Below are positions 1 through 33,778 of a DNA stretch of 64,000 nucleotides, in pieces. The position numbers and the translations under genes were made by a program. Within the stretch, counting starts at the first letter, position 1. Each line of letters begins with the position of its first letter. Below the pieces are notes generated by a model. It searched no databases. It had not been told where the DNA came from and was given only the letters and a program-made list of their open reading frames with translations. The stretch spans positions 1,112-65,111 of the forward strand of contig JAUCBJ010008410.1 of the NCBI GenBank assembly GCA_032718475.1, given 5' to 3'. The DNA is from Nemertoderma westbladi (lineage: Eukaryota > Animalia > Xenacoelomorpha).

Positions 1-10
1 AGCTTACCAG

Positions 11-331
11 ATGGTATTTTTATGCCCTCAACCACCCAATTCTATTCCAGAACCTAAGTCGAACATGTACGTGACTACTAATATAATTGAAAATCAATAT
101 ATTAATGACTTTGGTTTAGCTTTACTTCGTCGTGTTGCGATACCTGATGACGTGAAATATGGTAGCGTAATAAATAAAGAATTTGTCAAGGATACAATTC
201 ATTATATCCCTGTAAAAAAATCATATAAGATAACATACATTCATATTGAAATAACAGACAAAGAAGGAAAAGATTTGAATTTTGAATACGGGACAACATC
301 TATTACATTACACTTTAAACGTATAAATTAA
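11..331 (+). CDS. Polinton minor capsid protein (penton), C-terminal part
   Basis: LLRRV...HYIPV...IHIEITDKEGKDLNFEYG..SITLHFK matches the Polinton penton C-terminus. Frame is open to the window edge, so likely 5'-truncated. Confidence 0.8.
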   Translation: MVFLCPQPPNSIPEPKSNMYVTTNIIENQYINDFGLALLRRVAIPDDVKYGSVINKEFVKDTIHYIPVKKSYKITYIHIEITDKEGKDLNFEYGTTSITLHFKRIN

Positions 332-332
332 A

Positions 333-893
333 ATGGATTCTGATTTATTTCAAAGATACAGTAAACCTCAATATGGGGGTTCAGACTCGAATCTTGCTGT
401 TTTTAAAGGTGGTAGAAGTACCAGAGGTTCGACGCAAGTTCCTGTTTTTCGAGGTGGTTCATATATTGACCCTTACGGTCAACAAATTGGCACATTTGGT
501 CCAAACTTAAAACAACGTCGTTTTCAGCGTTATCGTAGAGGTATGCAGGCAAATCAACACGGAGAAGGTATATTTACAGACGCCTTATCGACATTGAAAA
601 AATTTGGTAAGCCATTAGCTAAAAAAGTTTTACAGAAAGCTTTACCATTTACCACAAAATTTATGAGACAACACGTAATACCAAAAGGTAAGCGGGTCTT
701 ACATCAGCAGGCTAATACGGTTATTAATAAAGCGTTAAATAAAATGAAACCGTCAACAAGATCGGTTGTAGAAAAAGTTTATAGAGATTTAAAGCGACCC
801 GCTAGACCAATGTCTATGAACATACATCATCGACATAGTAAAAAGAGAAATATAAAGGGCAAACTGAAACACTGCGAAAAAAGTATTTTTTAA
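333..893 (+). CDS. Basic virion core-like protein with adenain-type cleavage motifs
   Basis: K/R-rich; repeated QYGG/FKGG/FRGG/QHGEG motifs; lies between penton and MCP. Confidence 0.7.
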   Translation: MDSDLFQRYSKPQYGGSDSNLAVFKGGRSTRGSTQVPVFRGGSYIDPYGQQIGTFGPNLKQRRFQRYRRGMQANQHGEGIFTDALSTLKKFGKPLAKKVLQKALPFTTKFMRQHVIPKGKRVLHQQANTVINKALNKMKPSTRSVVEKVYRDLKRPARPMSMNIHHRHSKKRNIKGKLKHCEKSIF

Positions 894-895
894 TA

Positions 896-2155
896 ATGTC
901 AATTATTAAGGAATTAGATTTATTTTCTACACAACCAATACAGACTGAATTTAAAGCAAAGCATTATGAAACAATTTACCCCGTATCTAATCTCAGAAGT
1001 GAATCTAGGGAGGTCACCTTCCTTGTACCCAGATCCAATGAATTCTATACGAAACTGCAAGATGCTTTATTAATTACAAAATGTACAGTACGCTGGGATA
1101 GGCGACTTGAAAACTCTCATATATATATGCTGAATTACCCCGCTGAAACTATGTGGAGTGATATTAAAATAGACCTTAATGAGAAGCAGGTTGAAAATAG
1201 CAATAACCATTATTTCTACAAGTCGTACTTATCCAATTTATTATTTACAACTTACGAGGATAAAAATGGGCTACTGGGTGCGGGTGGCTTTCATCAACCT
1301 TTATCTGAACACGGAAATGAAATTGACTCAGACGTGCATCCTATTGACGATGCCTTTAGTAAACAAATGCAATTTGTAAGTGGATTGACGATTGATTTTG
1401 ATACTGAAACTAAAATAATACAACCCGGGTATGATTTAAGAATGCATTTTAGAAAAGTATCAAATTCGTTTATTTTTAAAATCACTCCAAACGCAAACGC
1501 CGTGACAAATCTTCGGCTAGAATTAGATGAAATAAAGATTCTAATCCCTAGAATGGAGGTTAATCCAGTAATAGAAAGCAGTCACCTAAAAGGTTTAGAG
1601 AGCTACGATATTGAATATCAATTTCAAAAGAAAGAGGTGACAACATTTACTATTCCCGCACAAACCACAAATTACACCCAAACAAACATATTTGATGGTA
1701 AAAAACCCAAATTAGTTATTATCGGCTTCATAACAAATAACTCTTATTCGGGAGAATTAATTAGCAATCCCTTGAAATTTGAACATTTTAACCTTAGACG
1801 TGCGGAACTGATTGTAGACGGTCTTCCAGTAGGGGGTGTAATATACGAGCCTAATTTTACAGATGGAACATATATTTTTGAGTATACTCAATTAATGAAA
1901 AACATTAATACATATATTAACGGTTATGGAGGTAATAATATAGACCATGAAACCTACTTAGGTAATTGCCCCCTCCTATCCTGGGACCTAACCGCCGACG
2001 GGTATGTTAGAGATCCGCAACCGTCGATATATACTAACGGCAAATTAAAATTAAGATTTGCCGAACCGTTGGTTGAAACCATAAATGTAATCGTTTTTAA
2101 TATTTATGATCAATCATTAAGTTTAAATAGCAGGAAAGAAATACATATCGATTAA
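896..2155 (+). CDS. Polinton major capsid protein (double jelly-roll, hexon-like)
   Basis: N-terminal ELDLF..P.QT, NYPAETMWSDIKIDLN, YFYKSY, PKLVIIGF, NPLKFEHFNL, WDLTAD, LKLRFAEPL motifs; 419 aa, intact. Confidence 0.9.
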   Translation: MSIIKELDLFSTQPIQTEFKAKHYETIYPVSNLRSESREVTFLVPRSNEFYTKLQDALLITKCTVRWDRRLENSHIYMLNYPAETMWSDIKIDLNEKQVENSNNHYFYKSYLSNLLFTTYEDKNGLLGAGGFHQPLSEHGNEIDSDVHPIDDAFSKQMQFVSGLTIDFDTETKIIQPGYDLRMHFRKVSNSFIFKITPNANAVTNLRLELDEIKILIPRMEVNPVIESSHLKGLESYDIEYQFQKKEVTTFTIPAQTTNYTQTNIFDGKKPKLVIIGFITNNSYSGELISNPLKFEHFNLRRAELIVDGLPVGGVIYEPNFTDGTYIFEYTQLMKNINTYINGYGGNNIDHETYLGNCPLLSWDLTADGYVRDPQPSIYTNGKLKLRFAEPLVETINVIVFNIYDQSLSLNSRKEIHID

Positions 2156-2157
2156 GT

Positions 2158-2613
2158 ATGTTATCTACAGAGGACCTTGATATGTTTCCAGTGGGCGGTC
2201 ACTATTTGGGAGCGTTTCCAGCTAACAAATTACCTAAATTAGATAATAATAATAAGCGGCGGGATTATGGGTTAATAGTAAATACCGATAAAGAGCATCT
2301 GCCCGGGATTCATTGGATCGGGATATATATACGAGATAATGAGGCCGAAGTATTTGACTCGTTTGGACCAAAATATCCAAACAGATGCATCGAAAAATGG
2401 CTTGAGAAAAATTCCGCGAGGTGGCGTACTACACGCAAACAATTTCAAGACCCCCGGAGGACCACATGCGGTCTGTACTGTCTTTATTATTTGGTAAATC
2501 GTATTCACACAATCTATCCAATGAGTGCGTTTACAAATAATGTGGAAATAAATGAAATTATATTATATAAATGGCTTGTTAATTATTATAAATTAAACCA
2601 ACAAACTTTGTAA
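2158..2613 (+). CDS. Adenain-like cysteine maturation protease
   Basis: IVNTD...PGIHW (His), VFDSFG (Asp), FQ....TCGLYC (Gln/Cys) catalytic motifs. Confidence 0.92.
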   Translation: MLSTEDLDMFPVGGHYLGAFPANKLPKLDNNNKRRDYGLIVNTDKEHLPGIHWIGIYIRDNEAEVFDSFGPKYPNRCIEKWLEKNSARWRTTRKQFQDPRRTTCGLYCLYYLVNRIHTIYPMSAFTNNVEINEIILYKWLVNYYKLNQQTL

Positions 2614-2644
2614 TTAATTATTTAACTTTTGTTTATCAGATAAA

Positions 2645-3244
2645 ATGGATAATATTACTTTTGTTGATTTTCAATATTATAAGATAGACAATAAAGAGTA
2701 TCCGGTAGTATTTAAAGAATTTGCTATTTTCGATTCTAATTACACCAAAACTAATATAAAGACGTTTTTAATTAAAGGCCCTCCTAATATTAAATTATCA
2801 GCATTAGATGCAGCCCACGTAAACAATTTACGGGATATGGCTTCTCACTTGCCCTGGAACTATGGAGACATTTCGCAAGACGACTTTAAAAAATATATGA
2901 AGAGATATTTAAAATATAAAAAAAATATTCATGTATTTGGGTTGATGAAGCGGGCAATATTAGTTTCCCAACTCGATGTTCTCGAGCCAAATTCGGTGGA
3001 GAAATTGGGAATATATAAGCAATATCATGATTATTTAACCCCTTGTCGATTTCACGACCGATTCACTACAGTGGAAAGTAAATGCACGTTCCACTTAAAC
3101 ATAAGGGATAACTGTCTGCGATACTGCTCAGCAAAACGCGTTGGGGGGTTTGAGGCTCTACACTTTTTCATGAGAAAGCGTTTAACTGCGACTGATGATG
3201 ATGATAAACAGAAAGAAATAACTGCGGTGGAAGATGTACTGTAG
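2645..3244 (+). CDS. DEDD/DnaQ-like nuclease-fold protein (possibly inactive)
   Basis: N-terminal FVDFQ..VFKEFAIF, HLPWNYGDI and C-terminal C..H...CS resemble a DEDD-like family common in Polintons; Q in place of the DxE glutamate. Confidence 0.5.
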   Translation: MDNITFVDFQYYKIDNKEYPVVFKEFAIFDSNYTKTNIKTFLIKGPPNIKLSALDAAHVNNLRDMASHLPWNYGDISQDDFKKYMKRYLKYKKNIHVFGLMKRAILVSQLDVLEPNSVEKLGIYKQYHDYLTPCRFHDRFTTVESKCTFHLNIRDNCLRYCSAKRVGGFEALHFFMRKRLTATDDDDKQKEITAVEDVL

Positions 3245-3611
3245 GTTTACTCTAAGCATGTAATGTGATGGGATAATATAATTTTATTTTGGTGATGATC
3301 TTGATGTTAATATAAAAATATAATAAAATATAATTTTTTTTACAACAAGTTCTCTAAAAGAGTCAATCGCGGTAGGTTAACCATGCACATTTAACAATAT
3401 GACGTAGACGTAACATGTACAGTAAGTATTCTCGATATCGTTCTAATATAGATATACTGGTATTGCGAAACATCCTATACATCGCAAACTAATAACACAT
3501 ACAGTAGTTGACTAGTAATATTAGTCAGAAATGCAACATAAATTGTATAGGATGTAGTGTTAACCTGTTGGTACCGGTACTGATAAATTCAATAATTTAT
3601 TATAAGCCTAA

Positions 3612-4358
3612 CCACAACTGTCATCCGCTTTATCAGTACCGGTAGTGTTTTACTCTTCCAACACTGTAGTCACAGTCTACTGGTATCAGTACAGCAGTAA
3701 TCTGAAGCAATAGCATACTGCTGTCATGATCTGGATTACACGCAGGAGTCTCTCATATAGGGATTAGATCACCTATCCAAACAATACAGTACTGCAGTAC
3801 TGTCGTTGTTCTTGATGTAACAGCATAATCAGATAGAGCATACTGATTTCCTTTGATTAGCATTGTACCGCAGTACCAGTACTACAGTATTAATGTAACA
3901 GTACCCGCAGTAACAAACTAGGCTAATGTATACAATATCGTGAGTCAGTTACAATCAGATGTGTACGCAGTCAGCCACTCCTATCCACAACTGTCATCCA
4001 TTTTATCAGTACAGCAGTAATCTGATGTAATAACATTTGTTTTTTTTTTCAACTATAAGGATACTGCTGTCTACCCGAACCTTGATTAGCATACTGCTGT
4101 CATAACCTAGAAGGGACGCGTAGCTCTCACATATAGGGATTAGATCACCTACCCAAACAATACAGTACTGCAGTACTGTCGCTGTTCTTGATGTAACAGT
4201 ATAGTCAGATAGAGCATGCTGATTTCCTTTAATTAGCATTGTACTGCAGTACGGTACCGGTACCACAGTATTAATGTAACAGTACCCGTAGTAACAAACT
4301 GAGTCAATGTATACTTTATCGTGAGCCAGTTACAATCGGATGTGCGCGCAGTCAGCCA
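3612..4358. repeat. Two imperfect ~373-bp direct repeats rich in palindromes
   Basis: CCACAACTGTCATCC starts at 3612 and 3985. Each unit has the 18-bp palindrome ACAGTACTGCAGTACTGT (3786-3803, 4162-4179). Confidence 0.85.
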
Positions 4359-4403
4359 TACTGCTGGGAAACGGTCCACCTTGCAGCCGTCTAGCCACCC
4401 TCA

Positions 4404-4560
4404 CAGTCAGCCTCGCGGCACGCAGTCAGCCTCGCAGTCAGCCTCGCGGCATGCAGTCAGCCTCGCAACCAGCCTCGCAGCACGCAGTCAGCCTCGTGGT
4501 CGGTCATGTAGTCAGCCTCGCGGCACGCAGCCAGCCATGCAGCTAGACACGCAGTCAACC
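4404..4560. repeat. GC-rich minisatellite (GCAGTCAGCCTCGCGGCAC-like units); second copy at 10593-10749
   Basis: About 7 variable units of CAGTCAGCCTCGC visible directly. Confidence 0.85.
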
Positions 4561-4652
4561 CGTGAGAGTCATGCTTATTCAAACGAGGTTAGTTTTCCCT
4601 AACTACCGATTGATTGATTGATTGAAAAATAATAATGTTTAATTTTCACCTT

Positions 4653-5198
4653 CTAATCACCAACACCTAAAGTCACAACACCAAACATTAATAAATAATT
4701 AACAAGTTTACTAAATATAGGGTAATAAATGTGAAATTTGCTAGGTGAACACATTAAAGTACATTTACCGGTATGAAAGCAGCAAATGACTACAGTATTA
4801 TTTATTCTTATTTTGCAATTATTAAAAATTTCAGGTTCATATATAACTTGAAGTTGCACATTATCAAAGACAACATAAAACCCTGTATTGTTTATCAATA
4901 ACCTATAGACTACAGACTTAATACTAAAAATATAAGTACATAAATTAACAGATTTTAAAATCAAATTAATACTAGTTTTATCAAATATATGTTTTTTTAC
5001 TTTTTGGAAATTATACTTACTGCCTAATAATGTAATACGACCATTTTTAAATATTAATAATGTGGCACCAAATATCTTATATATAAACTGATTTGGTTTG
5101 AGTATGTGTTTACCAGATAATTGATTTTTTAATTCTTTCAAATTAATTGCTGACACTTGCTGGCAACTTACATTCTTATTGACTATCTGATAGTTCAT
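4653..5198 (-). CDS. TATA-binding protein (TBP)-like protein, copy 1
   Basis: 181 aa with two-repeat TBP pattern: IVN..V, INLKEL, TLLIFKNGRITLLGSK; SVNL, YEPEIF, CCFHTGKCTL. Overlaps the pPolB 3' end by 23 nt. Confidence 0.75.
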   Translation of the reverse strand: MNYQIVNKNVSCQQVSAINLKELKNQLSGKHILKPNQFIYKIFGATLLIFKNGRITLLGSKYNFQKVKKHIFDKTSINLILKSVNLCTYIFSIKSVVYRLLINNTGFYVVFDNVQLQVIYEPEIFNNCKIRINNTVVICCFHTGKCTLMCSPSKFHIYYPIFSKLVNYLLMFGVVTLGVGD

Positions 5199-8100
5199 TG
5201 TTTGGTTCCTGATAAATTGGTATATTGTTTTTTTTCATAGGTTTTTCGACCTTTGTTTGATAGTGACCCCAGGGAAGCGAATGATTTTTATTAACCCAAT
5301 AAAGTTTATCATCAAATGCGCTGAGAGCAAACTTATCTCGTGCTATAGTATACACTTTGTGTAATTTACTTTGAAATTGATGTGTTTCCTTGGAAATTTC
5401 TTCGTTATCGTAATATGCCCTCAAATAATCTTCGTGACAAATATTTTTATCCACGACAGCTCTTGTTATTCCTTTTGCCCGTCGTATATTGGAATCATTC
5501 CATTCTAAAATTGAATATAATTTTGGTCTTAAAAATACCGCTTGTTTAATCTCTCGTGAGGCTAGTTCGTCTTTACAGTAATAGAGCCTGGATTTATTTT
5601 TATCGCTGTAGAGAGGGTGATCCTTGGGGTAATTGGATGTATCTAGAATATTATTTTTAATTAAGGCTTTTAAAAAATTATTCTGCGATGTATTATAGTA
5701 ACAACCTATTAAAGAGTCCGTGTCTGATGCTACAATTTCAATTCGGCAGTTTAATTCTTTCTCAATAGGTAGCAATTTATCGTAATACAGCTGATACATA
5801 TCCAATTTAGCCAAGTCCAAGACAGTACTACCTATATAGACCGGCTTATCGAGAGTTACAGAGTCTTTTACTAATAAATGTCCCGATAAGGAATCGTTAT
5901 AAATCATGAAATTTTCATGATTTATTCGTTTGACTAATTGGTCACATTTTTCTTTACTATTAGCGATACGAAAGTTGCATCGGTCCCTTATCTTCTCTAT
6001 CGTTTTTCCAAATAAAGAATTGTTCAGCAATTTCGCGACAGCTGTTTAAATATAACTTTTTGCTAGCCGCCTTTGATTAATATTAAAATCTATATAGGGT
6101 TTAAATACAAAGTCTTGATGGAAAGAATATAATTTATGGAGCTTAGTAACAATTAAACCTTGTTTTATATAAAATTTTAACAGTTTTAAATTTACATGAT
6201 AGAATTCTTTATCGAATTGTGTCAACATAAGTTTCGGTGCACACATCTTATACTTGCTATTAGTGCCTCTTTGTTTACAAACATTGTTAAATTGTTCCCT
6301 CATATAAGGTGAAAGCATTGTCTCATTTATACTTAAATGTTCTGGAGCTAAGGGTAGTTCTAATGTACGATCGTGAATATCTTTGGGATATTTCAAATCG
6401 CAAATTAAGAAAAACCCAATATCACCTTCAGTATCAAGATTTGTTAAATATTTTATCAGTTCTTCTGGAGCAGCATTCTCTAAATATGTAACGTTGACTT
6501 GTTCAAAACCTGAAACAGGTAGCTTTTTACTTAAATTACCAGAATACAAGGAATTAAAATCTATATTGAAAATATGACACTCTTCCTTGCTTGGATCATA
6601 ATTATCAGTATCTGGTATATTTGATTCTATGTAATGCTTTCGACAGAATGAAACCCCTCCTCTAATAGATGCTTCAAAATCTCTATATGTTTGGTAATCT
6701 TTTATTAATGTTAACTTACATTTATTGTATTTCAGGGCGCAATCATAAGTGAAAGCTGCGATACTGCAATAATAAACTACTTCTAATTCGTAGTTTTGTC
6801 TACACACTCTCCTAAAGTTCTCAAATATATCAGCGAGGAGACAAACATCGAGTTTTAAGTATGCTAAAAGATAATCCTTGAGATTCACACAGTCAAACTG
6901 ACTCCATGATGCGTTGGCAAAACTATATTCCTCGGGTGTACAGGTATTTTGTGTTAATTTACTATAAAATTTGTCTATTGATGGTAATTTCGAATCATTG
7001 AATTTATTTAAATCTGTCAGATACTCGTAGGGAAATATACCTTTTCGTTTAATTGTTGCATTATTTAAATTTGGATAAAAATATTTCATTTGCTGTTCAG
7101 TAATTGGTAGAACTGATGTTATATCCTCGCTGTCTATATCCTTTGTTGAACAATCAACTAAAGTACTTAGGGAAAAGGATAAAAATTGATATGTGTCTAA
7201 GACACGTAGCTCGATCTTAGTTTTTTCATCTTTCACTGGTATATGCATGCTTAGTGAAATATACCTTTCAGAATTTTTAGGGATTACCTTTATATCCCAA
7301 TCGGAATATTTATTATTGCTAAAACCAACTTGCAAAAGAAAATGCAAATCGTAGAGATTGCAGTTGTGTGCAGCGAGTATATACATGTGTCATTTCAACG
7401 ATAAAGAGCGGTTACATGCGTTACAAGCGGCCGCTATATAGTTACCAGTAATATGTGAGTGATGTTTGTTTTTCTCAGACTTATCCTTAAATAAAACATT
7501 GCAATAAAAGCAAGTTTTAGCTTTCCAAAAACTTAACTTATCTGCATCATTAAGTATCATTCTCTCTCTTGTGTGGTCTTCCGACCACTTATATAATTGG
7601 GTGATGTCATTATATACAGAGTCTAAAAAGTCTTGAATACAGTTGTTGTCGATTGTTTTTGTAAAGGTCTTCAAATAAAATTTTGGTGGATTGATTAATT
7701 CGGCACTAGGAACAATTAAATAACTTACAGCGCATGGAATATGATTCTGAATAAATTTACTGTTGGTGGCTGGCTCCAAAATAGATTCTATGTCAAAATA
7801 TATTACAAACAATGCTGGTAATGTTCTGTCTAAATTTCTAAAGCTAATGTGAGTTCTTTTTTCAGATGGTAGCTTCTCAACTTGACTTTTTCCTCGATAA
7901 CAAACAAGACGGTGACGTTCTAGAACATCATTGGTGTAGAAAGGCGCCAAACACCGTTCACAATATTTCCTACCACGAGTATGAAGAGCTCTCGTATTCA
8001 TCAAACGATTCAAGTTAGTTATGCAAACATAATGTGATTGTTTACTCGTATTCTTATTTTTTACAAGTAATATATTCAATAACTCTTTATCTGGAGTGAT

Positions 8101-9198
8101 TTTACTAAATGGTGCCTGTCTTAATATAGATACTCGATTGTTGTTGTAGAGTAATAAATTAATTATATATGCTGAATTCTGTTTTTCAAAAAGTTTAATT
8201 GCAAGCTGCCATTCTGTTGGATAATCTTTGTTCCCGTTGTCAAAAATAAAATGACACATATAATTTTTGTACTGCGAAGTACAATATTTGTTGTTCTTCA
8301 CTTTGCTACTAAATTTTGTAGCTATAATTGCCCATTTAAAACAATCATTATCAGCCGTTTGTATATTTATAACACATTTTTTAACTGATAGAGCCTTAGG
8401 TAACTCCATATAACCGTGTCCCTTATATAGTAACGACCTACACTTGGATTCAGCTACTTTAATTTCAACCCTTAATAAAGATTTAACACGCCACCCTGAG
8501 CCACGAGTGTTAAACATGGCTATTTTTTGCATTAATTTTTCTAATACATACTCAAACCATGTGTCAAAACTTTCATGTGAATCTACGGTATTAACTGCAC
8601 CACCTGAAGAACTAAAATAGAAAGCTTCTTCTTGATCACCCTCTGAAAAATGTGATCGATACATGAGTATATTCACACCTAGCCAGGGTCTAAGTACATT
8701 CATTTCGCTAAGTTTTCCTAATAATAAAGTTTGGATGTGAGGTAGAATTTTAATTAATGATGAATGAATATCAGGAAAATCTTCATCATTTGGAAGATTG
8801 TAAACATAGATTTCTAAACGGTTATCGTGTGCGGCTTGTTCGATGTTAAAAATTGATGAACCTTGACCAGATTTCAGTCTTTTTCTAGATACGATAGTAT
8901 TGTTTTGGTTCCGTTGTGGTGGTGGTCTAACATGATAATAACGTTGGTGACAGTCGTGACGTAAGTAATTCTCATATAAATACTCTTTATTACAAGTAGG
9001 GCAAGTTTTTTCATACACGCAAAACTTCATTTCTTTACATCCTGTAGTTGTTTCATGTCGTTTACATATTTCTTCACGTGAACATTTCACTCGACAATTA
9101 AAACAATTGTATTCTTCAAAATGAGATTTCACATGTGTTAAATAATTTCGTTTAGAAATTTGATGAGGACAAAATGGACATTTCAATTGTTTATCCAT
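5176..9198 (-). pseudogene. Protein-primed DNA polymerase B (pPolB), copy 1, with two in-frame stops
   Basis: Three ORFs in one frame separated by TGA (7390-7392) and TAA (6046-6048). Motifs: N-terminal Zn fingers, GSGW, DNDCF/HY (OTU-like), YFDIES, HNH-like insert, HN..YD, Y...DV, DFNSLY, KLLNNSLFGK, SDTDS. Confidence 0.9.
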
Positions 9199-9754
9199 CT
9201 CTTTATTATCCTAAAAACAATTTAAAATTAATATGAATATTGTTATATATATAATCAAAAAAATTCATAAGCTACTCAACACAAATAAAATATAATATCT
9301 AAACTTTAATTAATTTAATATTTTCAGAATGAGCTCGAATGAATCAGTTGAGCTCTTTATATATATATATATTTCAAGTTTCTACTTATACCAACCAATC
9401 ATAAATAACAGTTACATTGGAAACTAATATCATAAATAAAGTTGCTTTTACAACTGAATTCTTTATAATAAAATCAAGTCTAAACCAAGATGTGTATAAT
9501 GCGTTTTTAATTTTCATTGATAAAGTAGGTTTTACATGCAAATGTTTTATTATGGTGGTGTAAACTCATGCATTTACATGCGAATGTTTTATACCTAATC
9601 CCGTGCTCACATTAAATATAAACTATCACCAATATTTACTCAATAAAGTCACCTTTACATGCAAATACTTTATAATAATCACACTTTGTGATAAAAAGTT
9701 ACCTTTACAAGTCAGTGTGAAACTGAAAAAGAAAAGTCTCTAGTTAATAATAAA

Positions 9755-10144
9755 TCAATCTGATACTGTTTTTATATGTTCCTTATTGTAATCTGCTACC
9801 TCTTCACTTGCTTTTGTAACTTTTATTTTCTTTGTAGGTATAGAATCATTGTTGGGAATGGAAGATGTTTGAGATGTAGATCTGCGCTTTCTATCACTCG
9901 AGGTCTCTTCGATGTATGTCTTTGGATTAAATGTGGATGAAACTACTTCTGGAAATGACTTATTAACCTTAAACTTCCAAGTTGGTGGATATAGAATCGT
10001 GAAACCGTCTGCTATATCAGTTGATGAAACATTTAACATCATATCGTAGAGAAACTCTATATATGGTATGTCTTTATCGTAATGTAACTGTAAATATTTG
10101 CTTTCCTTGTCTGTAATAATTACTTTTTTTTCTTGTACATTTAT
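9755..10144 (-). pseudogene. 5'-truncated duplicate of the 347-aa (PC4-like) gene
   Basis: Matches 15948-16337; cut at the duplication junction. Confidence 0.9.
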
Positions 10145-10841
10145 GAGATGTGTACGCAGTCAGCCACTCCTATCCACAACTGTCATCCATTTTATCAGTA
10201 CAGCAGTAATCTGATGTAATAACATTTGTTTTTTTTTTCAACTATAAGGATACTGCTGTCTACCCGAACCTTGATTAGCATACTGCTGTCATAACCTAGA
10301 AGGGACGCGTAGCTCTCACATATAGGGATTAGATCACCTACCCAAACAATACAGTACTGCAGTACTGTCGCTGTTCTTGATGTAACAGTATAGTCAGATA
10401 GAGCATGCTGATTTCCTTTAATTAGCATTGTACTGCAGTACGGTACCGGTACCACAGTATTAATGTAACAGTACCCGTAGTAACAAACTGAGTCAATGTA
10501 TACTTTATCGTGAGCCAGTTACAATCGGATGTGCGCGCAGTCAGCCATACTGCTGGGAAACGGTCCACCTTGCAGCCGTCTAGCCACCCTCACAGTCAGC
10601 CTCGCGGCACGCAGTCAGCCTCGCAGTCAGCCTCGCGGCATGCAGTCAGCCTCGCAACCAGCCTCGCAGCACGCAGTCAGCCTCGTGGTCGGTCATGTAG
10701 TCAGCCTCGCGGCACGCAGCCAGCCATGCAGCTAGACACGCAGTCAACCCGTGAGAGTCATGCTTATTCAAACGAGGTTAGTTTTCCCTAACTACCGATT
10801 GATTGATTGATTGAAAAATAATAATGTTTAATTTTCACCTT

Positions 10842-11387
10842 CTAATCACCAACACCTAAAGTCACAACACCAAACATTAATAAATAATTAACAAGTTTAC
10901 TAAATATAGGGTAATAAATGTGAAATTTGCTAGGTGAACACATTAAAGTACATTTACCGGTATGAAAGCAGCAAATGACTACAGTATTATTTATTCTTAT
11001 TTTGCAATTATTAAAAATTTCAGGTTCATATATAACTTGAAGTTGCACATTATCAAAGACAACATAAAACCCTGTATTGTTTATCAATAACCTATAGACT
11101 ACAGACTTAATACTAAAAATATAAGTACATAAATTAACAGATTTTAAAATCAAATTAATACTAGTTTTATCAAATATATGTTTTTTTACTTTTTGGAAAT
11201 TATACTTACTGCCTAATAATGTAATACGACCATTTTTAAATATTAATAATGTGGCACCAAATATCTTATATATAAACTGATTTGGTTTGAGTATGTGTTT
11301 ACCAGATAATTGATTTTTTAATTCTTTCAAATTAATTGCTGACACTTGCTGGCAACTTACATTCTTATTGACTATCTGATAGTTCAT
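10842..11387 (-). CDS. TBP-like protein, copy 2
   Basis: Protein identical to 4653-5198. Confidence 0.75.
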   Translation of the reverse strand: MNYQIVNKNVSCQQVSAINLKELKNQLSGKHILKPNQFIYKIFGATLLIFKNGRITLLGSKYNFQKVKKHIFDKTSINLILKSVNLCTYIFSIKSVVYRLLINNTGFYVVFDNVQLQVIYEPEIFNNCKIRINNTVVICCFHTGKCTLMCSPSKFHIYYPIFSKLVNYLLMFGVVTLGVGD

Positions 11388-14300
11388 TGTTTGGTTCCTG
11401 ATAAATTGGTATATTGTTTTTTTTCATAGGTTTTTCGACCTTTGTTTGATAGTGACCCCAGGGAAGCGAATGATTTTTATTAACCCAATAAAGTTTATCA
11501 TCAAATGCGCTGAGAGCAAACTTATCTCGTGCTATAGTATACACTTTGTGTAATTTACTTTGAAATTGATGTGTTTCCTTGGAAATTTCTTCGTTATCGT
11601 AATATGCCCTCAAATAATCTTCGTGACAAATATTTTTATCCACGACAGCTCTTGTTATTCCTTTTGCCCGTCGTATATTGGAATCATTCCATTCTAAAAT
11701 TGAATATAATTTTGGTCTTAAAAATACCGCTTGTTTAATCTCTCGTGAGGCTAGTTCGTCTTTACAGTAATAGAGCCTGGATTTATTTTTATCGCTGTAG
11801 AGAGGGTGATCCTTGGGGTAATTGGATGTATCTAGAATATTATTTTTAATTAAGGCTTTTAAAAAATTATTCTGCGATGTATTATAGTAACAACCTATTA
11901 AAGAGTCCGTGTCTGATGCTACAATTTCAATTCGGCAGTTTAATTCTTTCTCAATAGGTAGCAATTTATCGTAATACAGCTGATACATATCCAATTTAGC
12001 CAAGTCCAAGACAGTACTACCTATATAGACCGGCTTATCGAGAGTTACAGAGTCTTTTACTAATAAATGTCCCGATAAGGAATCGTTATAAATCATGAAA
12101 TTTTCATGATTTATTCGTTTGACTAATTGGTCACATTTTTCTTTACTATTAGCGATACGAAAGTTGCATCGGTCCCTTATCTTCTCTATCGTTTTTCCAA
12201 ATAAAGAATTGTTCAGCAATTTCGCGACAGCTGTTTAAATATAACTTTTTGCTAGCCGCCTTTGATTAATATTAAAATCTATATAGGGTTTAAATACAAA
12301 GTCTTGATGGAAAGAATATAATTTATGGAGCTTAGTAACAATTAAACCTTGTTTTATATAAAATTTTAACAGTTTTAAATTTACATGATAGAATTCTTTA
12401 TCGAATTGTGTCAACATAAGTTTCGGTGCACACATCTTATACTTGCTATTAGTGCCTCTTTGTTTACAAACATTGTTAAATTGTTCCCTCATATAAGGTG
12501 AAAGCATTGTCTCATTTATACTTAAATGTTCTGGAGCTAAGGGTAGTTCTAATGTACGATCGTGAATATCTTTGGGATATTTCAAATCGCAAATTAAGAA
12601 AAACCCAATATCACCTTCAGTATCAAGATTTGTTAAATATTTTATCAGTTCTTCTGGAGCAGCATTCTCTAAATATGTAACGTTGACTTGTTCAAAACCT
12701 GAAACAGGTAGCTTTTTACTTAAATTACCAGAATACAAGGAATTAAAATCTATATTGAAAATATGACACTCTTCCTTGCTTGGATCATAATTATCAGTAT
12801 CTGGTATATTTGATTCTATGTAATGCTTTCGACAGAATGAAACCCCTCCTCTAATAGATGCTTCAAAATCTCTATATGTTTGGTAATCTTTTATTAATGT
12901 TAACTTACATTTATTGTATTTCAGGGTGCAATCATAAGTGAAAGCTGCGATATTGCAATAATAAACTACTTCTAATTCGTAGTTTTGTCTACACACTCTC
13001 CTAAAGTTCTCAAATATATCAGCGAGGAGACAAACATCGAGTTTTAAGTATGCTAAAAGATAATCCTTGAGATTCACACAGTCAAACTGACTCCATGATG
13101 CGTTGGCAAAACTATATTCCTCGGGTGTACAGGTATTTTGTGTTAATTTACTATAAAATTTGTCTATTGATGGTAATTTCGAATCATTGAATTTATTTAA
13201 ATCTGTCAGATACTCGTAGGGAAATATACCTTTTCGTTTAATTGTTGCATTATTTAAATTTGGATAAAAATATTTCATTTGCTGTTCAGTAATTGGTAGA
13301 ACTGATGTTATATCCTCGCTGTCTATATCCTTTGTTGAAAAATCAACTAAAGTACTTAGGGAAAAGGATAAAAATTGATATGTGTCTAAGACACGTAGCT
13401 CGATCTTAGTTTTTTCATCTTTCACTGGTATATGCATGCTTAGTGAAATATACCTTTCAGAATTTTTAGGGATTACCTTTATATCCCAATCGGAATATTT
13501 ATTATTGCTAAAACCAACTTGCAAAAGAAAATGCAAATCGTAGAGATTGCAGTTGTGTGCAGCGAGTATATACATGTGTCATTTCAACGATAAAGAGTGG
13601 TTACATGCGTTACAAGCGGCCGCTATATAGTTACCAGTAATATGTGAGTGATGTTTGTTTTTCTCAGACTTATCCTTAAATAAAACATTGCAATAAAAGC
13701 AAGTTTTAGCTTTCCAAAAACTTAACTTATCTGCATCATTAAGTATCATTCTCTCTCTTGTGTGGTCTTCCGACCACTTATATAATTGGGTGATGTCATT
13801 ATATACAGAGTCTAAAAAGTCTTGAATACAGTTGTTGTCGATTGTTTTTGTAAAGGTCTTCAAATAAAATTTTGGTGGATTGATTAATTCGGCACTAGGA
13901 ACAATTAAATAACTTACAGCGCATGGAATATGATTCTGAATAAATTTACTGTTGGTGGCTGGCTCCAAAATAGATTCTATGTCAAAATATATTACAAACA
14001 ATGCTGGTAATGTTCTGTCTAAATTTCTAAAGCTAATGTGAGTTCTTTTTTCAGATGGTAGCTTCTCAACTTGACTTTTTCCTCGATAACAAACAAGACG
14101 GTGATGTTCTAGAACATCATTGGTGTAGAAAGGCGCCAAACACCGTTCACAATATTTCCTACCACGAGTATGAAGAGCTCTCGTATTCATCAAACGATTC
14201 AAGTTAGTTATGCAAACATAATGTGATTGTTTACTCGTATTCTTATTTTTTACAAGTAATATATTCAATAACTCTTTATCTGGAGTGATTTTACTAAATG

Positions 14301-15387
14301 GTGCCTGTCTTAATATAGATACTCGATTGTTGTTGTAGAGTAATAAATTAATTATATATGCTGAATTCTGTTTTTCAAAAAGTTTAATTGCAAGCTGCCA
14401 TTCTGTTGGATAATCTTTGTTCCCGTTGTCAAAAATAAAATGACACATATAATTTTTGTACTGCGAAGTACGATATTTGTTGTTCTTCACTTTGCTACTA
14501 AATTTTGTAGCTATAATTGCCCATTTAAAACAATCATTATCAGCCGTTTGTATATTTATAACACATTTTTTAACTGATAGAGCCTTAGGTAACTCCATAT
14601 AACCGTGTCCCTTATATAGTAACGACCTACACTTGGATTCAGCTACTTTAATTTCAACCCTTAATAAAGATTTAACACGCCACCCTGAGCCACGAGTGTT
14701 AAACATGGCTATTTTTTGCATTAATTTTTCTAATACATACTCAAACCATGTGTCAAAACTTTCATGTGAATCTACGGTATTAACTGCACCACCTGAAGAA
14801 CTAAAATAGAAAGCTTCTTCTTGATCACCCTCTGAAAAATGTGATCGATACATGAGTATATTCACACCTAGCCAGGGTCTAAGTACATTCATTTCGCTAA
14901 GTTTTCCTAATAATAAAGTTTGGATGTGAGGTAGAATTTTAATTAATGATGAATGAATATCAGGAAAATCTTCATCATTTGGAAGATTGTAAACATAGAT
15001 TTCTAAACGGTTATCGTGTGCGGCTTGTTCGATGTTAAAAATTGATGAACCTTGACCAGATTTCAGTCTTTTTCTAGATACGATAGTATTGTTTTGGTTC
15101 CGTTGTGGTGGTGGTCTAACATGATAATAACGTTGGTGACAGTCGTGACGTAAGTAATTCTCATATAAATACTCTTTATTACAAGTAGGGCAAGTTTTTT
15201 CATACACGCAAAACTTCATTTCTTTACATCCTGTAGTTGTTTCATGTCGTTTACATATTTCTTCACGTGAACATTTCACTCGACAATTAAAACAATTGTA
15301 TTCTTCAAAATGAGATTTCACATGTGTTAAATAATTTCGTTTAGAAATTTGATGAGGACAAAATGGACATTTCAATTGTTTATCCAT
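11365..15387 (-). pseudogene. pPolB, copy 2, same two in-frame stops
   Basis: Stops at 13579-13581 (TGA) and 12235-12237 (TAA); 6 amino-acid differences from copy 1. Confidence 0.9.
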
Positions 15388-15947
15388 CTCTTTATTATCC
15401 TAAAAACAATTTAAAATTAATATGAATATTGTTATATATATAATCAAAAAAATTCATAAGCTACTCAACACAAATAAAATATAATATCTAAACTTTAATT
15501 AATTTAATATTTTCAGAATGAGCTCGAATGAATCAGTTGAGCTCTTTATATATATATATATTTCAAGTTTCTACTTATACCAACCAATCATAAATAACAG
15601 TTACATTGGAAACTAATATCATAAATAAAGTTGCTTTTACAACTGAATTCTTTATAATAAAATCAAGTCTAAACCAAGATGTGTATAATGCGTTTTTAAT
15701 TTTCATTGATAAAGTAGGTTTTACATGCAAATGTTTTATTATGGTGGTGTAAACTCATGCATTTACATGCGAATGTTTTATACCTAATCCCGTGCTCACA
15801 TTAAATATAAACTATCACCAATATTTACTCAATAAAGTCACCTTTACATGCAAATACTTTATAATAATCACACTTTGTGATAAAAAGTTACCTTTACAAG
15901 TCAGTGTGAAACTGAAAAAGAAAAGTCTCTATCTAGTTAATAATAAA

Positions 15948-16991
15948 TCAATCTGATACTGTTTTTATATGTTCCTTATTGTAATCTGCTACCTCTTCAC
16001 TTGCTTTTGTAACTTTTATTTTCTTTGTAGGTATAGAATCATTGTTGGGAATGGAAGATGTTTGAGATGTAGATCTGCGCTTTCTATCACTCGAGGTCTC
16101 TTCGATGTATGTCTTTGGATTAAATGTGGATGAAACTACTTCTGGAAATGACTTATTAACCTTAAACTTCCAAGTTGGTGGATATAGAATCGTGAAACCG
16201 TCTGCTATATCAGTTGATGAAACATTTAACATCATATCGTAGAGAAACTCTATATATGGTATGTCTTTATCGTAATGTAACTGTAAATATTTGCTTTCCT
16301 TGTCTGTAATAATTACTTTTTTTTCTTGTACATTTATTTTTACTTTAAGTCGGTCAGATAAAGCTTTATCGCCCGTATCTAGCTCTGAAAAGACACCTTC
16401 GTTACTAATTTCATAATTCCATTCATACCACAATGAATTTACTTCCGATGCTGTTAAGTTAAACCCATTATAATACCTAAGACCAATAGCATCAGAATAT
16501 CTAGCTGAAATCTCCCATAGTCCCATATAAGTCGCTCCTTTATATTTGCTTACAAAACCGACAAAAGATGGGTTGGTTAAATTAACAACAGAACACTGAT
16601 TTATTATTTCGAGTGGTGGTGATAACAATTCTAATATTTCTGTCTTACTCTGAAGCAATAAATTAATGAGTGATTTGTTTAGAATTTGACATTTGCCTTG
16701 CTTCTGAATATATACGTTTTCAGTAATAACACAGGTGGAAATATTTAACTTTCCTCTTGTAAATTCTATATTAGGATAAATATTACCTCTTGAAACTGGT
16801 GATTCCTTTTGTCGGTTGATTAATATTTCTAAGACGTCTAGAAGGTAGAGTGTATCCTGGTAAGAGAAGCACGTTGTTACATTGCTATCGCTTGAGAGTA
16901 ATATAAAGTACTTGCCATAAACAATACTACAGGTATATTTATTAAATGTAAATTTCCAAGTATTGCTTGAAGTTTTTTTAAATAAATCCAT
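15948..16991 (-). CDS. Polinton accessory protein with a putative PC4/Sub1-like ssDNA-binding domain
   Basis: FVSKYKGATYMGLWEI...NGFNLTASEVNSL resembles the PC4 pattern VSxFKGxxYIDIRE...KGISLTxEQWxxL. Basic NLS-like tail (RKRR, KKIK). Confidence 0.5.
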   Translation of the reverse strand: MDLFKKTSSNTWKFTFNKYTCSIVYGKYFILLSSDSNVTTCFSYQDTLYLLDVLEILINRQKESPVSRGNIYPNIEFTRGKLNISTCVITENVYIQKQGKCQILNKSLINLLLQSKTEILELLSPPLEIINQCSVVNLTNPSFVGFVSKYKGATYMGLWEISARYSDAIGLRYYNGFNLTASEVNSLWYEWNYEISNEGVFSELDTGDKALSDRLKVKINVQEKKVIITDKESKYLQLHYDKDIPYIEFLYDMMLNVSSTDIADGFTILYPPTWKFKVNKSFPEVVSSTFNPKTYIEETSSDRKRRSTSQTSSIPNNDSIPTKKIKVTKASEEVADYNKEHIKTVSD

Positions 16992-29836: not shown

Positions 29837-30932
29837 GTGCGACGAACATGACGGGAATGCGGGGATCGCAAATATTAGAGAATGAAGGTCAGCAGCACCC
29901 GCAAGCAAAATTAAGTTAAGGTATAAATGCCTGTCTATATTATAGTCCTTCTTCAGGCAAATAAAATAAGTACAATATAACCGTTAACACGTTAGATATA
30001 ACTGAAAGTTTTAAATTTCCCTCCAATTGTAAAGGTTATGCAATGCTTGATTATATGGTAAAGTAGGTGTGAGTTGGTAAATGTAAAGTATAGTAGGTGT
30101 GAGGTACAGTAGGTGCACGCTGGTAAATATTACTACATTGAGTAGGTGCACGCTGGTAAATATTACTACATTGAAAAGAAGGTAACAATGAAATATAATT
30201 ATGCTAAAGAATGAATAACAATAATATGAATAAATCGTGGTAAGTATGTAGAGTAGGTGCACATTAATATTATGTACCGGCGGTAAATATTAATACAACA
30301 CATAAAATAGGAAACAAATAAACTAAGAGAGAAAACATAATTATGTTATGCATGAATATATTAATATTATGTAACGGTTGTAAATAAGGTGTGAGGTGCA
30401 GTAGGTGCACACTGGTAAATATTAATACATTGCAAAGGAGGTGACAATGAAATAATGAAAGAAATATAATTATGTTATGCAAGAATATTAATATTATAAC
30501 AGTGGTAAATCATAGAATATGGTGGTAATGTAAAGTAGATGTAGGGATGGTAAGTGAAGTAGGTGTGAAGGGAATGAAATATAATTATGCTAAGCGTGAA
30601 TATTAATAATGTGTATAAATCGTGGTAAGTATGTAGAGTAGGTGCAAATTAATATTATGTACCGGCAGTAAATTTAATATAGTATAGTAATATAATAATA
30701 TAGACCCCTAGATCCCTTCCTATACTGTAACTCACACCTACTTTACCATATAATCAAGCATTGCATAACCTTTACAATTGGCGGGAATTTTTTTAAAACT
30801 TTAAGTTATATCTAACGTGTTAACGGTTATATTGTACTTATTCTATTTGCCTGAAGAAGGACTATAATATAGTCAGGCATTTATACCTTAACTTAATTCT
30901 GCTTGCGGGTGCTGCTGACCTTCATTCTCTAA
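29837..30932. mobile_element. Non-coding foldback element with ~200-bp inverted repeats and a one-sided tail (Penelope-like or MITE)
   Basis: Inverted repeats ~29872-30075 / ~30729-30935; TATGTTAACA direct repeat at 29827-29836 and 30933-30942; internal AGGTGCAC repeats. Confidence 0.7.
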
Positions 30933-31332
30933 TATGTTAACATCTAATATTTTAACAGTGTTGAGTGATTATATAGTATATTATTATAGTAGAGTAGAAA
31001 TGAGCCACAGTAAGTAAAGAAACACTCGGGGTGAAAGAATTTGTTATTTTAAGTAACAAGTCGGTTTAAAATAGACCAAAGAACGTTATATGTTTTTTTG
31101 TGTTAGATCGTGCATTTTAGTACATGTGCAATTTTGAAGAAATCTGTATTTAATTAATTTAGTATTATAATATTCTATTTTTAGAATTTACTACATTTTT
31201 TGGTATGTTGGTAGTTCGTGTCATTTAAAAATACACCATAAATACTGGACCGTAAAATTGTACATTGTATGATGTTGTTTCTTCTTCTCTGAATCTGTTC
31301 GCGTAATATACTGTGTACATTGTTTATTTCAG

Positions 31333-32205: not shown

Positions 32206-33778
32206 GTTAGTATTCTTAAAGATTACAACGTATGCGCAATCTCTAAAGTATTAGTTCCAATCCTGCAGATGATGCGACGCTATAGAGTTTTACAAAAAGT
32301 TGATTTATTTCAAAGGGTTACCCACAGCCTGCTGACCGCACTTAACAAACTTACAAATCGAACATATTATTTTGTCTGGAAGATTCACATCGAAAAAAAT
32401 TATGATATTTGATCACTCTTATTGTCACTTTTTTTACAATTAAAAACTGATGGTAGTATCCCAAAATTTAGAATATATTACATATCCTTTATTAGGGTTA
32501 ATGAAAAGATAAACAAACAAGTAAAAACAACCTGCACCTGCACTCAACGAATATAAGATAACCAAAATATCAAATATGATAAGGCCTATCAGACTATACT
32601 ACTCGAGTTAGACAGATTAATAACGGAAATCAGAATACTGCTTGTCTACTAATAGAATAGCGCTAAAGAAAATAAAGATAGTAACAAAATGTTGGGAATT
32701 GCAGTCTAGTAAAGCAGAAGAAAATACACAGTAGGGTGCATCAAATGCCCCACTTTTTTTAAGAAATGGAATGGATACTTTTTGTCCCTAGATTTATTTT
32801 GTTCAATTTGATGATAATAATGAAATTTTGAAAGTTTTGTATAACCTGTAATTTGTCTTCGGGGTCGGGGTCCTTAGAGCACTCAAGATATGACAGTCGG
32901 CGATTGATCCAGTTATCGTTATAGATCCAAATAAGCTTATGCATGGGTGTGGAAATGTTATTCAATCATCAAAATTTATGTATGATATGCAATTTGCTTT
33001 CAAATGGTATGCTACATGATACCTTTCCAAAAATATTTACAAGATTGATTATCCCCCATTGACAATGGCAGTGTGGTGATCTAATATTTTTTTTGTTTTT
33101 AATCTAATATCAATCCTTATGACTATAAAGGCCCTTGACTGAGTACCACCCCACCAGAAATGAAATAATTCCTAAACCAATCGATGATCTGATGAATTCA
33201 AAGATACAAAATACAAGGAGATTTATTATGCTTGAGTTTGAGTATGTTTTATATTTCCCCTTATTTTTATGAAATGATATTATTATATTTATTCAATAAT
33301 ATTCCCTTTGTAATAATTGTTTTACGAAACATATTATTATATACATACTCTTACTACAGTTACTGGTAAAGTTAATTAATATGATGGGATTAATATTATG
33401 ATGAGTTACTTAGGTTTATGCAAGTTCGGTGTTTTCTTCCTATCTGCTTCATAGACCTGAAGGACATTTTGGTGTTAGAAGTTGAAGTGTATATATCGAA
33501 TATCATTATAATATAATAGGCCTACTAGCCAAACATGACTGCAGATATATAAACCTAGCGCAGTACAGCAGTACTTCTGACAGTCATTGTAGATGCTTAG
33601 TACCGGTTGCCGGTAGCACAATGATAAACTATAATGTAATACAACTAGAGTATTTAAATTTCCCGCCACACCCTTAAGATACTGATCATCGCATAATATA
33701 TTGTCATACAGTTTAAAGGTAAGTTACAGTTTCTAACACTCCCACTTGACTATAATAATTATGCGACATTGAATTTAA

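What the first reader, a model, noticed from the sequence alone, without database searches (positions are those of the whole stretch)
4653..5198. Polinton encodes its own TATA-binding-protein-like factor, coupled to the polymerase gene
Seen: an intact 181-aa ORF with two TBP-like half-repeats overlaps the pPolB stop by 23 nt. Phe residues occupy plausible equivalents of all four DNA-intercalating positions (KPNQF, LIF, YEPEIF, CCF), and the two beta-strand Asn (IVN, SVN) are present. It is intact in both duplicate copies while pPolB carries stops. Known: TBP is a basal factor for Pol I/II/III; TBP-like factors occur in large DNA viruses but are not core Polinton genes. Inference: this small virus-like element may redirect host polymerase to its own promoters or antagonise host TBP.
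Basis: partly seen in the sequence, partly recalled or inferred. Interest (0 to 1): 0.85.

Follow-up and report, generated by a model that had tools for sequence, protein, structure and literature searches.

The report
Polinton's own trimmed TATA-binding protein
A virus-like jumping element (Polinton/Maverick) with many copies in its host genome carries a real, conserved, heavily altered relative of the cell's TATA-binding protein, as several related elements do, and likely uses it with the host's TFIIB to steer RNA polymerase II to its own genes.

Summary
The 181-aa ORF (4653-5198, minus strand) is real, overlaps the pPolB end by 23 nt and is a two-lobed TBP homologue (Pfam E 3.5e-10; alignment-aided model matches TBP, Z 11.3). 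Only three of the four DNA-bending Phe are secure: the N-lobe stirrup is 5 residues short and F38 likely sits at V102. The two copies are one 99.8%-identical tandem duplication with the same pPolB stops, so they show nothing about selection. Better evidence: a second subfamily about 84% identical in public runs gives pN/pS 0.24 (40 of 66 variants). TBP is a recurring Polinton accessory gene: 8 of 81 related pPolB loci carry one. Most keep the TFIIB-contact glutamates that larger viruses often lose, and no element TFIIB was seen. Four relatives (two lineages) put an element-specific word (TTAAGC, TATAAACAA) before many genes; no such word is detectable here. Best reading: an element-encoded promoter factor using host TFIIB/Pol II, untested. 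A TBP label exists in one figure legend of Starrett 2021, and this scan noted Polinton TBPs before in other genomes (7 notes).

The parts
4653..5198 (-). TBP-like gene, 181 aa, two lobes, no N-terminal extension; N-lobe stirrup shortened; C-lobe YEPEIF stirrup with E121/E123 kept; P191 equivalent lost (N126)
10842..11387 (-). Identical second copy of the TBP-like gene, inside the tandem duplication
5176..9198 (-). [quoted passage not shown]
   Evidence: C-terminal piece hits PF03175/PF02945-bearing polymerases of animal Polintons, best E 3.4e-51
11365..15387 (-). Second copy of pPolB with the same two stops
3954..16337 (.). Tandem duplication of 6.19 kb (3954-10144 and 10143-16337), 99.82% identical
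15948..16991 (-). 347-aa ORF upstream of pPolB (3' part repeated at 9755-10144); a PC4-like stretch by eye only, no database support
   Evidence: no hit
1..331 (+). 3' end of a putative minor capsid protein gene (cut by the window edge)
   Evidence: matches ORFs beside the capsid block of related loci, best E 8e-9; the label is inferred from position
333..893 (+). Basic, Arg/Lys-rich putative core protein, 186 aa
   Evidence: label inferred from composition and position
896..2155 (+). Putative major capsid protein, 419 aa
   Evidence: homologues in related loci, best E 1.7e-46; label inferred from size, position and recalled Polinton layout, no Pfam hit
2158..2613 (+). Adenain-like maturation protease, 151 aa
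   Evidence: Pfam Peptidase_C5 E 5.2e-05
2645..3244 (+). 199-aa ORF, DEDD-exonuclease-like motif by eye
   Evidence: weak match to L021, E 0.001
3540..4560 (.). Repeat-rich spacer between the two converging gene blocks, variable in length among copies
   Evidence: joints

Best explanation
The ORF is a conserved TBP-fold accessory gene of a Polinton lineage that likely works as the element's own promoter-recognition factor: it is predicted to bind an AT-rich box in front of element genes, likely recruits the host's TFIIB through its retained glutamate stirrup, and so would bring host RNA polymerase II to element genes, most plausibly the capsid block after replication. Shown: TBP homology, open frame and excess of silent changes between two subfamilies, recurrence in related Polintons, retained E-x-E and three Phe, shortened N-lobe stirrup, element-specific upstream words in four relatives. 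Inferred: DNA binding, use of host TFIIB, escape from host regulators that grip the N-lobe, late timing, and the box read in this element (a near-canonical TATAAA is the candidate because the N-lobe DNA face I39/K41/T46/L48/F50 is canonical).
For: Pfam TBP E 3.5e-10. Model with a 94-row alignment: pLDDT 74.3; every listed Foldseek row to rank 44 is a TBP chain, best E 8.3e-10; Z 11.3, rmsd 4.5, 167 aligned, first non-TBP Z 6.6. Purifying selection: 26 of 40 listed variants at third codon positions, 20 silent vs 20 replacement where 19% silent is expected, pN/pS 0.24, p 1.4e-5, no stop; no indel listed in the ORF, and 72 letters replace 54 at its 5' end in the second subfamily, a multiple of three. 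TBP in 8 of 81 pPolB loci and 5 of the 11 that also hold a capsid gene. E-P-E kept in 6 of 7 Polinton TBPs aligned, the second Glu in all 7; these are the TFIIB-contact positions, only about 40% conserved in large-virus TBPs that bring their own TFIIB (PMC7221094, passages). No TFIIB family among 94 ORFs of the window element and five TBP-bearing loci. Shared upstream words: TTAAGC before 8 of 13 genes in L008, 5 of 10 in L012, 7 of 15 in L013; ATAAACA before 10 of 12 in L007; blind repeat: 0, 2, 7 and 0 of 100 random sets as good. The TTAAGC clade has the most altered N-lobe DNA face. Precedent: herpesvirus ORF24 with TATTWAA (PMC12529657, passages and section 15).
Against: No shared word in the window's own element: best word matched by 70 of 100 random sets; TATAAA before 4 of 7 genes, p 2e-3 uncorrected. 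L038 has TBP and no word (32 of 100), and 3 of 15 loci without a visible TBP also have an enriched A-rich word (L001, L047, L057, each 0 of 100). L008/L012/L013 are kin, so the word evidence is two lineages. The single-sequence model failed (pLDDT 40.9; no match at E 0.001; best wide Z 5.8, not TBP), so the fold match leans on the TBP alignment. The DNA face is much changed (V71>N, T124>L, P191>N, L205>C, T215>M; F99 likely lost; mapping with yeast numbers). Pfam also misses the capsid and polymerase ORFs, so a divergent TFIIB could be missed, and the element's left part is outside the window.
Confidence: 0.55

Rival explanations
1. The protein is a decoy that dampens host transcription: it would soak up host TFIIB or sit on host TATA boxes without starting transcription, freeing resources or blunting defence, and the element's own genes use host TBP.
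For: The TFIIB stirrup is the best-kept surface while the DNA face and N-lobe drift; no private word is detectable in this element and canonical TATAAA lies before 4 of 7 genes.
Against: Three Phe, N7 and both phosphate-binding basic residues (K41, R131) are kept; two related lineages have private words whose departure from TATA parallels their TBP's changes.
Confidence: 0.15
2. The protein is a DNA-bending factor for replication or packaging: it would bind the AT-rich ends or the repeat spacer and help the protein-primed polymerase it is co-transcribed with.
For: It overlaps the pPolB end here and lies downstream on the same strand in 7 of 8 relatives; pPolB's neighbours include ORFs that look like single-strand binders by eye.
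Against: The glutamates have no known role except adaptor binding (PMC7221094); in L007 the gene sits in the ATPase block on the other strand; early expression beside the polymerase also fits a late-gene activator.
Confidence: 0.12
3. The protein is a general booster without its own specificity: a regulation-proof extra TBP that raises transcription from ordinary TATA boxes of element and host alike.
For: Canonical N-lobe DNA face in this family; TATAAA before 4 of 7 genes; no private word; viral TBPs are proposed to evade Mot1 (PMC7221094 section 12).
Against: Loss of P191 and several base-contact changes predict altered preference; private words in relatives.
Confidence: 0.13
4. It is decaying cargo: a captured host TBP copy without function in the element.
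For: Long branch (3.57 changes per column); 20-28% identity to cellular TBPs; this genomic copy has a broken polymerase.
Against: pN/pS 0.24 and no stop or listed indel between subfamilies; a shared 5-residue N-lobe shortening in 6 of 7 Polinton TBPs; presence in 8 other loci.
Confidence: 0.05

Closest known systems
Cellular TBP (PF00352; PDB 1mp9, 1ytb, 1cdw)
   Same: Two-lobe saddle, N69, F116, F190, F207, L114 and the C-lobe E-x-E stirrup equivalents.
   Different: 20-28% identity; no N-terminal extension; N-lobe 5 residues shorter with F99 likely lost; P191, T124, T215 and V71 changed; an insertion of about 9 residues before YEPE (read by eye); element-borne and multi-copy.
TBP-labelled gene in MELD viruses with adintovirus-like PolB (Starrett et al. 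2021, PMC8502044, Fig. 5 legend)
   Same: A TBP-like ORF in a mid-size pPolB virus or element.
   Different: Only a label in the legend of a figure in the section on non-animal datasets; the figure is not held, so which element bears it is unknown to me; no analysis of residues, promoters or function in the passages seen; 0 hits for TBP/TATA in the one supplement held, which was cut at 4 million characters.
Beta/gamma-herpesvirus late-gene TBP mimic (KSHV ORF24) with TATTWAA promoters (PMC12529657)
   Same: A nuclear DNA virus without its own RNA polymerase using a TBP-fold protein for its own promoters (the working analogy).
   Different: ORF24 is 752 aa with extra domains, keeps all four Phe, lacks the TFIIB glutamates and works in a six-protein complex; this protein is a bare 181-aa core that keeps the glutamates.
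TBP homologues of large DNA viruses paired with viral TFIIB (PMC7221094)
   Same: Divergent viral TBP with the key Phe of each lobe kept; BFVD matches include named TBPs of giant viruses.
   Different: Those viruses mostly encode their own TFIIB and vary the glutamates; here the glutamates are kept and no TFIIB was seen.
Animal Polintons/Mavericks (adintoviruses)
   Same: pPolB, adenain-like protease, putative capsid block; relatives have rve integrase and A32-like ATPase.
   Different: TBP is not named in the three other Polinton papers searched for 'TATA' (0 occurrences each); it is an accessory gene of some lineages.

Membership tests
TBP family (PF00352) | Score above the Pfam gathering cut-off, two lobes | tested here: met
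   40 bits vs 22.9, 2 stretches
TBP family (PF00352) | Saddle fold | tested here: met
   Alignment-aided model Z 11.3, rmsd 4.5, 167 aligned; not reproduced without the alignment
Canonical TBP | Four intercalating Phe | tested here: not met
   F116, F190, F207 equivalents invariant; F38 likely equals V102; inference from register, not from a solved structure
Canonical TBP | Two symmetric Asn (N69, N159) | tested here: inconclusive
   N7 invariant; N85 fits by spacing only
Canonical TBP | C-lobe glutamates that contact TFIIB | tested here: met
   E121, E123; one conservative change listed at 121 in the second subfamily
Canonical TBP | N-lobe basic patch for TFIIA, TAF1, Mot1, Brf | tested here: inconclusive
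   Helix region is shorter and modelled at low confidence (residues 66-71 under 50) though Lys-rich
Canonical TBP | Binds and bends a TATA box | not testable with these tools
   Needs binding assays
Polinton/Maverick | Protein-primed PolB | tested here: met
   broken by two stops in this copy
Polinton/Maverick | Capsid proteins and maturation protease | tested here: met
   Protease by Pfam; capsid ORFs by homology to integrase-bearing loci, labels inferred
Polinton/Maverick | rve integrase and packaging ATPase | tested here: inconclusive
   Not in the window (tblastn); the element is cut at position 1; present in relatives
Polinton/Maverick | Terminal inverted repeats and target-site duplication | tested here: inconclusive
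   Left end outside the window; no long inverted repeat in the element region
Herpesvirus late TBP-mimic system | Extra Pol II-binding and DNA-binding domains, loss of TFIIB glutamates | tested here: not met
   181-aa core only, glutamates kept
Herpesvirus late TBP-mimic system | Dedicated non-canonical promoter word | tested here: inconclusive
   None detected in the window element; present in 4 of 5 TBP-bearing relatives tested
Large-virus orthogonal TBP-TFIIB pair | Own TFIIB gene | tested here: inconclusive
   0 of 94 ORFs match a TFIIB family, but the scan is insensitive and the elements are incomplete

The most novel reading that the evidence does not exclude
A lineage of animal Polintons has the smallest private transcription switch known: one bare TBP core that keeps the host-TFIIB handle, sheds the N-lobe stirrup, and co-evolves with an element-specific promoter word (TTAAGC, TATAAACAA, near-canonical here), giving these transposons a viral early-to-late gene programme; in this host a spliced antisense RNA across the TBP-polymerase block keeps the switch off.
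Probability: 0.35. Interest if true: 0.75.

Novelty: new variant of a known kind. Interest (0 to 1): 0.5.

Why it matters
Whether animal Polintons are real viruses with a timed gene programme is an open question; a dedicated promoter factor under purifying selection argues that they are, and gives a direct test that needs only the protein and short reporters. It would also be a third design of viral TBP: giant viruses bring their own TFIIB, herpesviruses bypass it, these elements seem to keep the host's. Natural TBP variants with matched non-TATA boxes would show how TBP specificity can be rewired. The gene in this window is one more member of that group, not a one-off.

Tried and rejected
No whole genome is held for the window, so individual copies and the element's left part could not be read. 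Single-sequence searches: no TBP in PDB sequences (1 unrelated hit, E 0.12); 0 of 40 candidates in the 90% protein set; 1 hit among 1.84 billion representatives (P0002, E 8.1e-4, named TBP by its source); no related locus in viral contigs for TBP or the middle pPolB piece. Atlas: all 30 hits carry PF00352 at 0.93-0.95, but recognition 1977 is under the tool's 2300 mark, so weak. Single-sequence fold uninformative. Half-against-half BLAST finds no repeat. Tree of 8 Polinton TBPs with the first 60 of the 120 other TBPs held: one side of a branch at 85/89, not starred, long branches meet, and no row was known to be an animal TBP or TRF2, so neither single origin nor donor is shown. Promoter word in the window: none; an 11-mer shared by two upstream regions (322, 2587) is within chance by my estimate. 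ORF 15948-16991: PC4 likeness by eye not supported. No RNA holder listed for the stretch; uneven cover in run X4 is not used as evidence. No complex prediction was run: only prokaryotic TFB stand-ins were on offer. Literature: searches 'Polinton + TATA-binding protein' (5 papers, listing only), 'Maverick/TBP/pPolB/Polinton' (30 of 39 listed), 'virophage + TATA-box binding protein + polinton-like' (2), 'Mavericks + TATA box-binding + capsid + integrase' (2), 'Polinton/PC4/late promoter' (20 of 42), 'adintovirus + TBP' (2), 'Polinton + TFIID + transposon' (1) showed no study of a Polinton TBP; subscription journals, Repbase entries and bioRxiv supplements were not searched and may bear on this.

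Full report
Observation. The minus strand holds an open frame of 181 codons from 5198 to 4653. The pPolB frame ends at 5176, so the two overlap by 23 nt. The protein scores 40 bits against Pfam TBP (cut-off 22.9, E 3.5e-10, two stretches) and 34.2 bits against a profile of 120 TBPs, where the best of 1000 shuffles gave 8.7. It is very divergent: a single-sequence search of 1.84 billion representatives found one hit, a TBP by its source's name, and identity to cellular TBPs is 16-28%. An AlphaFold2 model with a 94-row alignment has pLDDT 74.3; 44 PDB matches reach E 0.001 and every listed one is TBP; best Z 11.3 with rmsd 4.5 over 167 residues, first non-TBP Z 6.6. The model made without an alignment had pLDDT 40.9 and matched no TBP significantly, so the fold result is partly carried by the alignment.

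Setting. The gene lies in a Polinton cut by the left window edge: putative minor capsid end, basic core protein, putative major capsid and adenain-like protease plus a 199-aa ORF on the plus strand (1-3244), a repeat-rich spacer, then TBP, pPolB and a 347-aa ORF on the minus strand. No integrase or ATPase of the element is in the window. The rest of the window is retrotransposon-rich DNA. An animal host is inferred from the named pPolB relatives (mite, clam, aphids), not shown.

The duplicate. Both TBP copies lie in a tandem duplication of 6.19 kb, 99.82% identical, with 7 mismatches and one 4-nt gap and the same two pPolB stops. It postdates the stops and gives no evidence of selection; whether it is real or an assembly product I cannot tell.

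Selection. Public runs hold the element as thousands of overlapping variant contigs (8559 laid from X1, 3408 from X2 on 1-10200). The listed contigs of all four runs do not carry this copy's stop at 6046-6048, and those of X1, X2 and X4 not the one at 7390-7392 (X5 has no cover listed there), so the breaks look private to this copy. Over the TBP gene a second subfamily differs at 46 of 293 letters without a gap; no indel is listed in the ORF; 72 letters replace 54 at its 5' end. Of 66 variant places 40 were shown: 26 third-position, 10 first, 4 second; 20 silent and 20 replacement changes against 19% silent expected, pN/pS 0.24, p 1.4e-5, no stop. Limits: 26 rows unseen, variants pooled over contigs, multi-change codons assumed linked.

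Residues (yeast numbers from Table 1 of PMC12529657; I103, R105, T112, R196, V102 recalled). In a 12-row alignment of 7 Polinton and 5 other TBPs, N7, F50, G59, E123, F125, F141 and G144 are invariant. The C-lobe is in register: YEPEIF, R131 six residues after F125, F141 sixteen after; P191 is replaced by N. The N-lobe is 5 residues short between the stirrup Pro and F50, as in 5 of the 6 other Polinton TBPs. The model has strands 37-42 and 45-50 joined by a two-residue turn; counting back from F50, I39/K41/T46/L48 equal I103/R105/T112/L114 and F38 falls on V102. So three of four intercalating Phe are secure and the fourth is likely lost; this is an inference. The TFIIB-contact glutamates are kept, whereas large-virus TBPs conserve the first at about 40% and mostly come with a viral TFIIB (PMC7221094, passages and section 12), and KSHV ORF24 lacks them (PMC12529657, passages). 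None of 94 ORFs from the window element and five TBP-bearing loci matched a TFIIB family, in a scan that also misses the capsid and polymerase ORFs.

Relatives. A pPolB profile fetched 81 loci (1 viral; the best 80 of 232 metagenomic). Eight carry a TBP ORF (L007, L008, L012, L013, L014, L016, L038, and L024, cut and weak at E 0.02 with the cellular profile); 5 of the 11 loci that hold a capsid gene do. Most loci are short, so 8 of 81 is a floor. Four of the five long TBP loci show an rve integrase and four an ATPase by Pfam or 82 where the contig reaches (integrase: L007, L008, L012, L013, L038; A32-like ATPase: L007, L013, L038). Gene order varies: two ORFs between pPolB and TBP in five loci, about 3 kb in two, opposite strand in L007. 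In a tree with 60 other TBPs the 8 Polinton rows form one side of a branch at 85/89, unstarred, with long branches.

Promoter words. Following a lead from earlier scan notes I tested for shared words in the 100 nt before genes. TTAAGC precedes 8 of 13 genes in L008, 5 of 10 in L012 and 7 of 15 in L013; ATAAACA precedes 10 of 12 in L007, mostly 35-48 nt before the ATG. In a blind repeat on the 21 sources with six or more genes, random sets did as well in 0, 2, 7 and 0 of 100 for these four, 32 for L038 and 70 for the window; 3 of 15 loci without visible TBP also had an A-rich word at 0 of 100, the other 12 did not. The window shows TATAAA before 4 of 7 genes, not significant. The association is suggestive, rests on two lineages, and is not shown for this element, of which only part is visible.

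Mechanism. Most likely (0.55) the protein is made early with the polymerase, binds an AT-rich box on element promoters, holds host TFIIB by its glutamate stirrup and brings in Pol II; the trimmed N-lobe may loosen control by host regulators. Rivals: decoy (0.15), non-specific booster (0.13), replication or packaging factor (0.12), dead cargo (0.05). No binding or activity was tested.

Prior knowledge. [quoted passage not shown] 5; I could not see the figure. Three other Polinton papers have no occurrence of 'TATA' (word search only). Seven literature searches found no study of a Polinton TBP (listings only). This scan holds 7 earlier notes on Polinton TBPs in other genomes, none for this genome or this sequence; they are unchecked and not counted as support.

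Side finding. Run X4 shows four joints absent from runs X1 and X2 that read GT..AG on the plus strand, with consensus donors and pyrimidine-rich acceptors (4587/6736, 6943/7866, 8013/9838, 8960/9838; 4 of the 6 listed joints with X4 depth; chance about 0.01 each). They describe a spliced RNA antisense to pPolB whose first intron removes the whole TBP gene; the longest ATG frame in the exon chain is 68 codons. X4 is listed as 'DNA?'; that it is RNA is my inference; one run only.

Verdict. Real, functional by selection, a divergent TBP of a recurring Polinton accessory family; new variant of a known kind; interest 0.5.

Noticed in passing
window 4587-10144, plus strand: Four GT-AG joints with consensus splice sites in run X4 point to a spliced, apparently non-coding RNA antisense to pPolB; its first intron (4588-6735) spans the whole TBP gene. 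Possible antisense control or silencing precursor; one run only.
   Followed up: partly
L008, L012, L013 (upstream of most genes); L007: Element-specific upstream words TTAAGC and TATAAACAA in TBP-bearing Polintons; the TTAAGC clade has the most altered N-lobe DNA face.
   Followed up: partly
L001, whole locus: A capsid-bearing pPolB locus without visible TBP has TAAAAA before 10 of 13 genes.
   Followed up: no
window 3540-4560: Repeat-rich spacer with palindromes and a GC-rich 12/19/31-nt tandem array between the converging gene blocks; length varies among copies.
   Followed up: partly
window 15948-16991: Orphan 347-aa ORF upstream of pPolB with a PC4-like stretch by eye; no hit in Pfam, PDB sequences or the Atlas.
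   Followed up: partly
L007 13480-13974; L038 10440-10850: TBP-bearing relatives also carry a ubiquitin-conjugating-enzyme-like ORF (L007) and a DUF4326 ORF (L038).
   Followed up: no
L013 1130-2683 and 9017-10522: Two related putative minor capsid genes flank the polymerase block in one element.
   Followed up: no
window 33473-38485: Young copia-type LTR retrotransposon: 266-nt LTRs 99.6% identical, gag (37111-37980) and pol (33779-37114) in separate frames overlapping by 4 nt.
   Followed up: no
window 49853-51195 and 61646-62960: A 1.3-kb repeat 97% identical with PHD/CCCH-like ORFs, around a degraded LINE-type region (endonuclease and reverse transcriptase pieces, 55681-60663).
   Followed up: no
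window 29872-30935: Inverted repeat of about 205 nt, 96% complementary, MITE-like.
   Followed up: no
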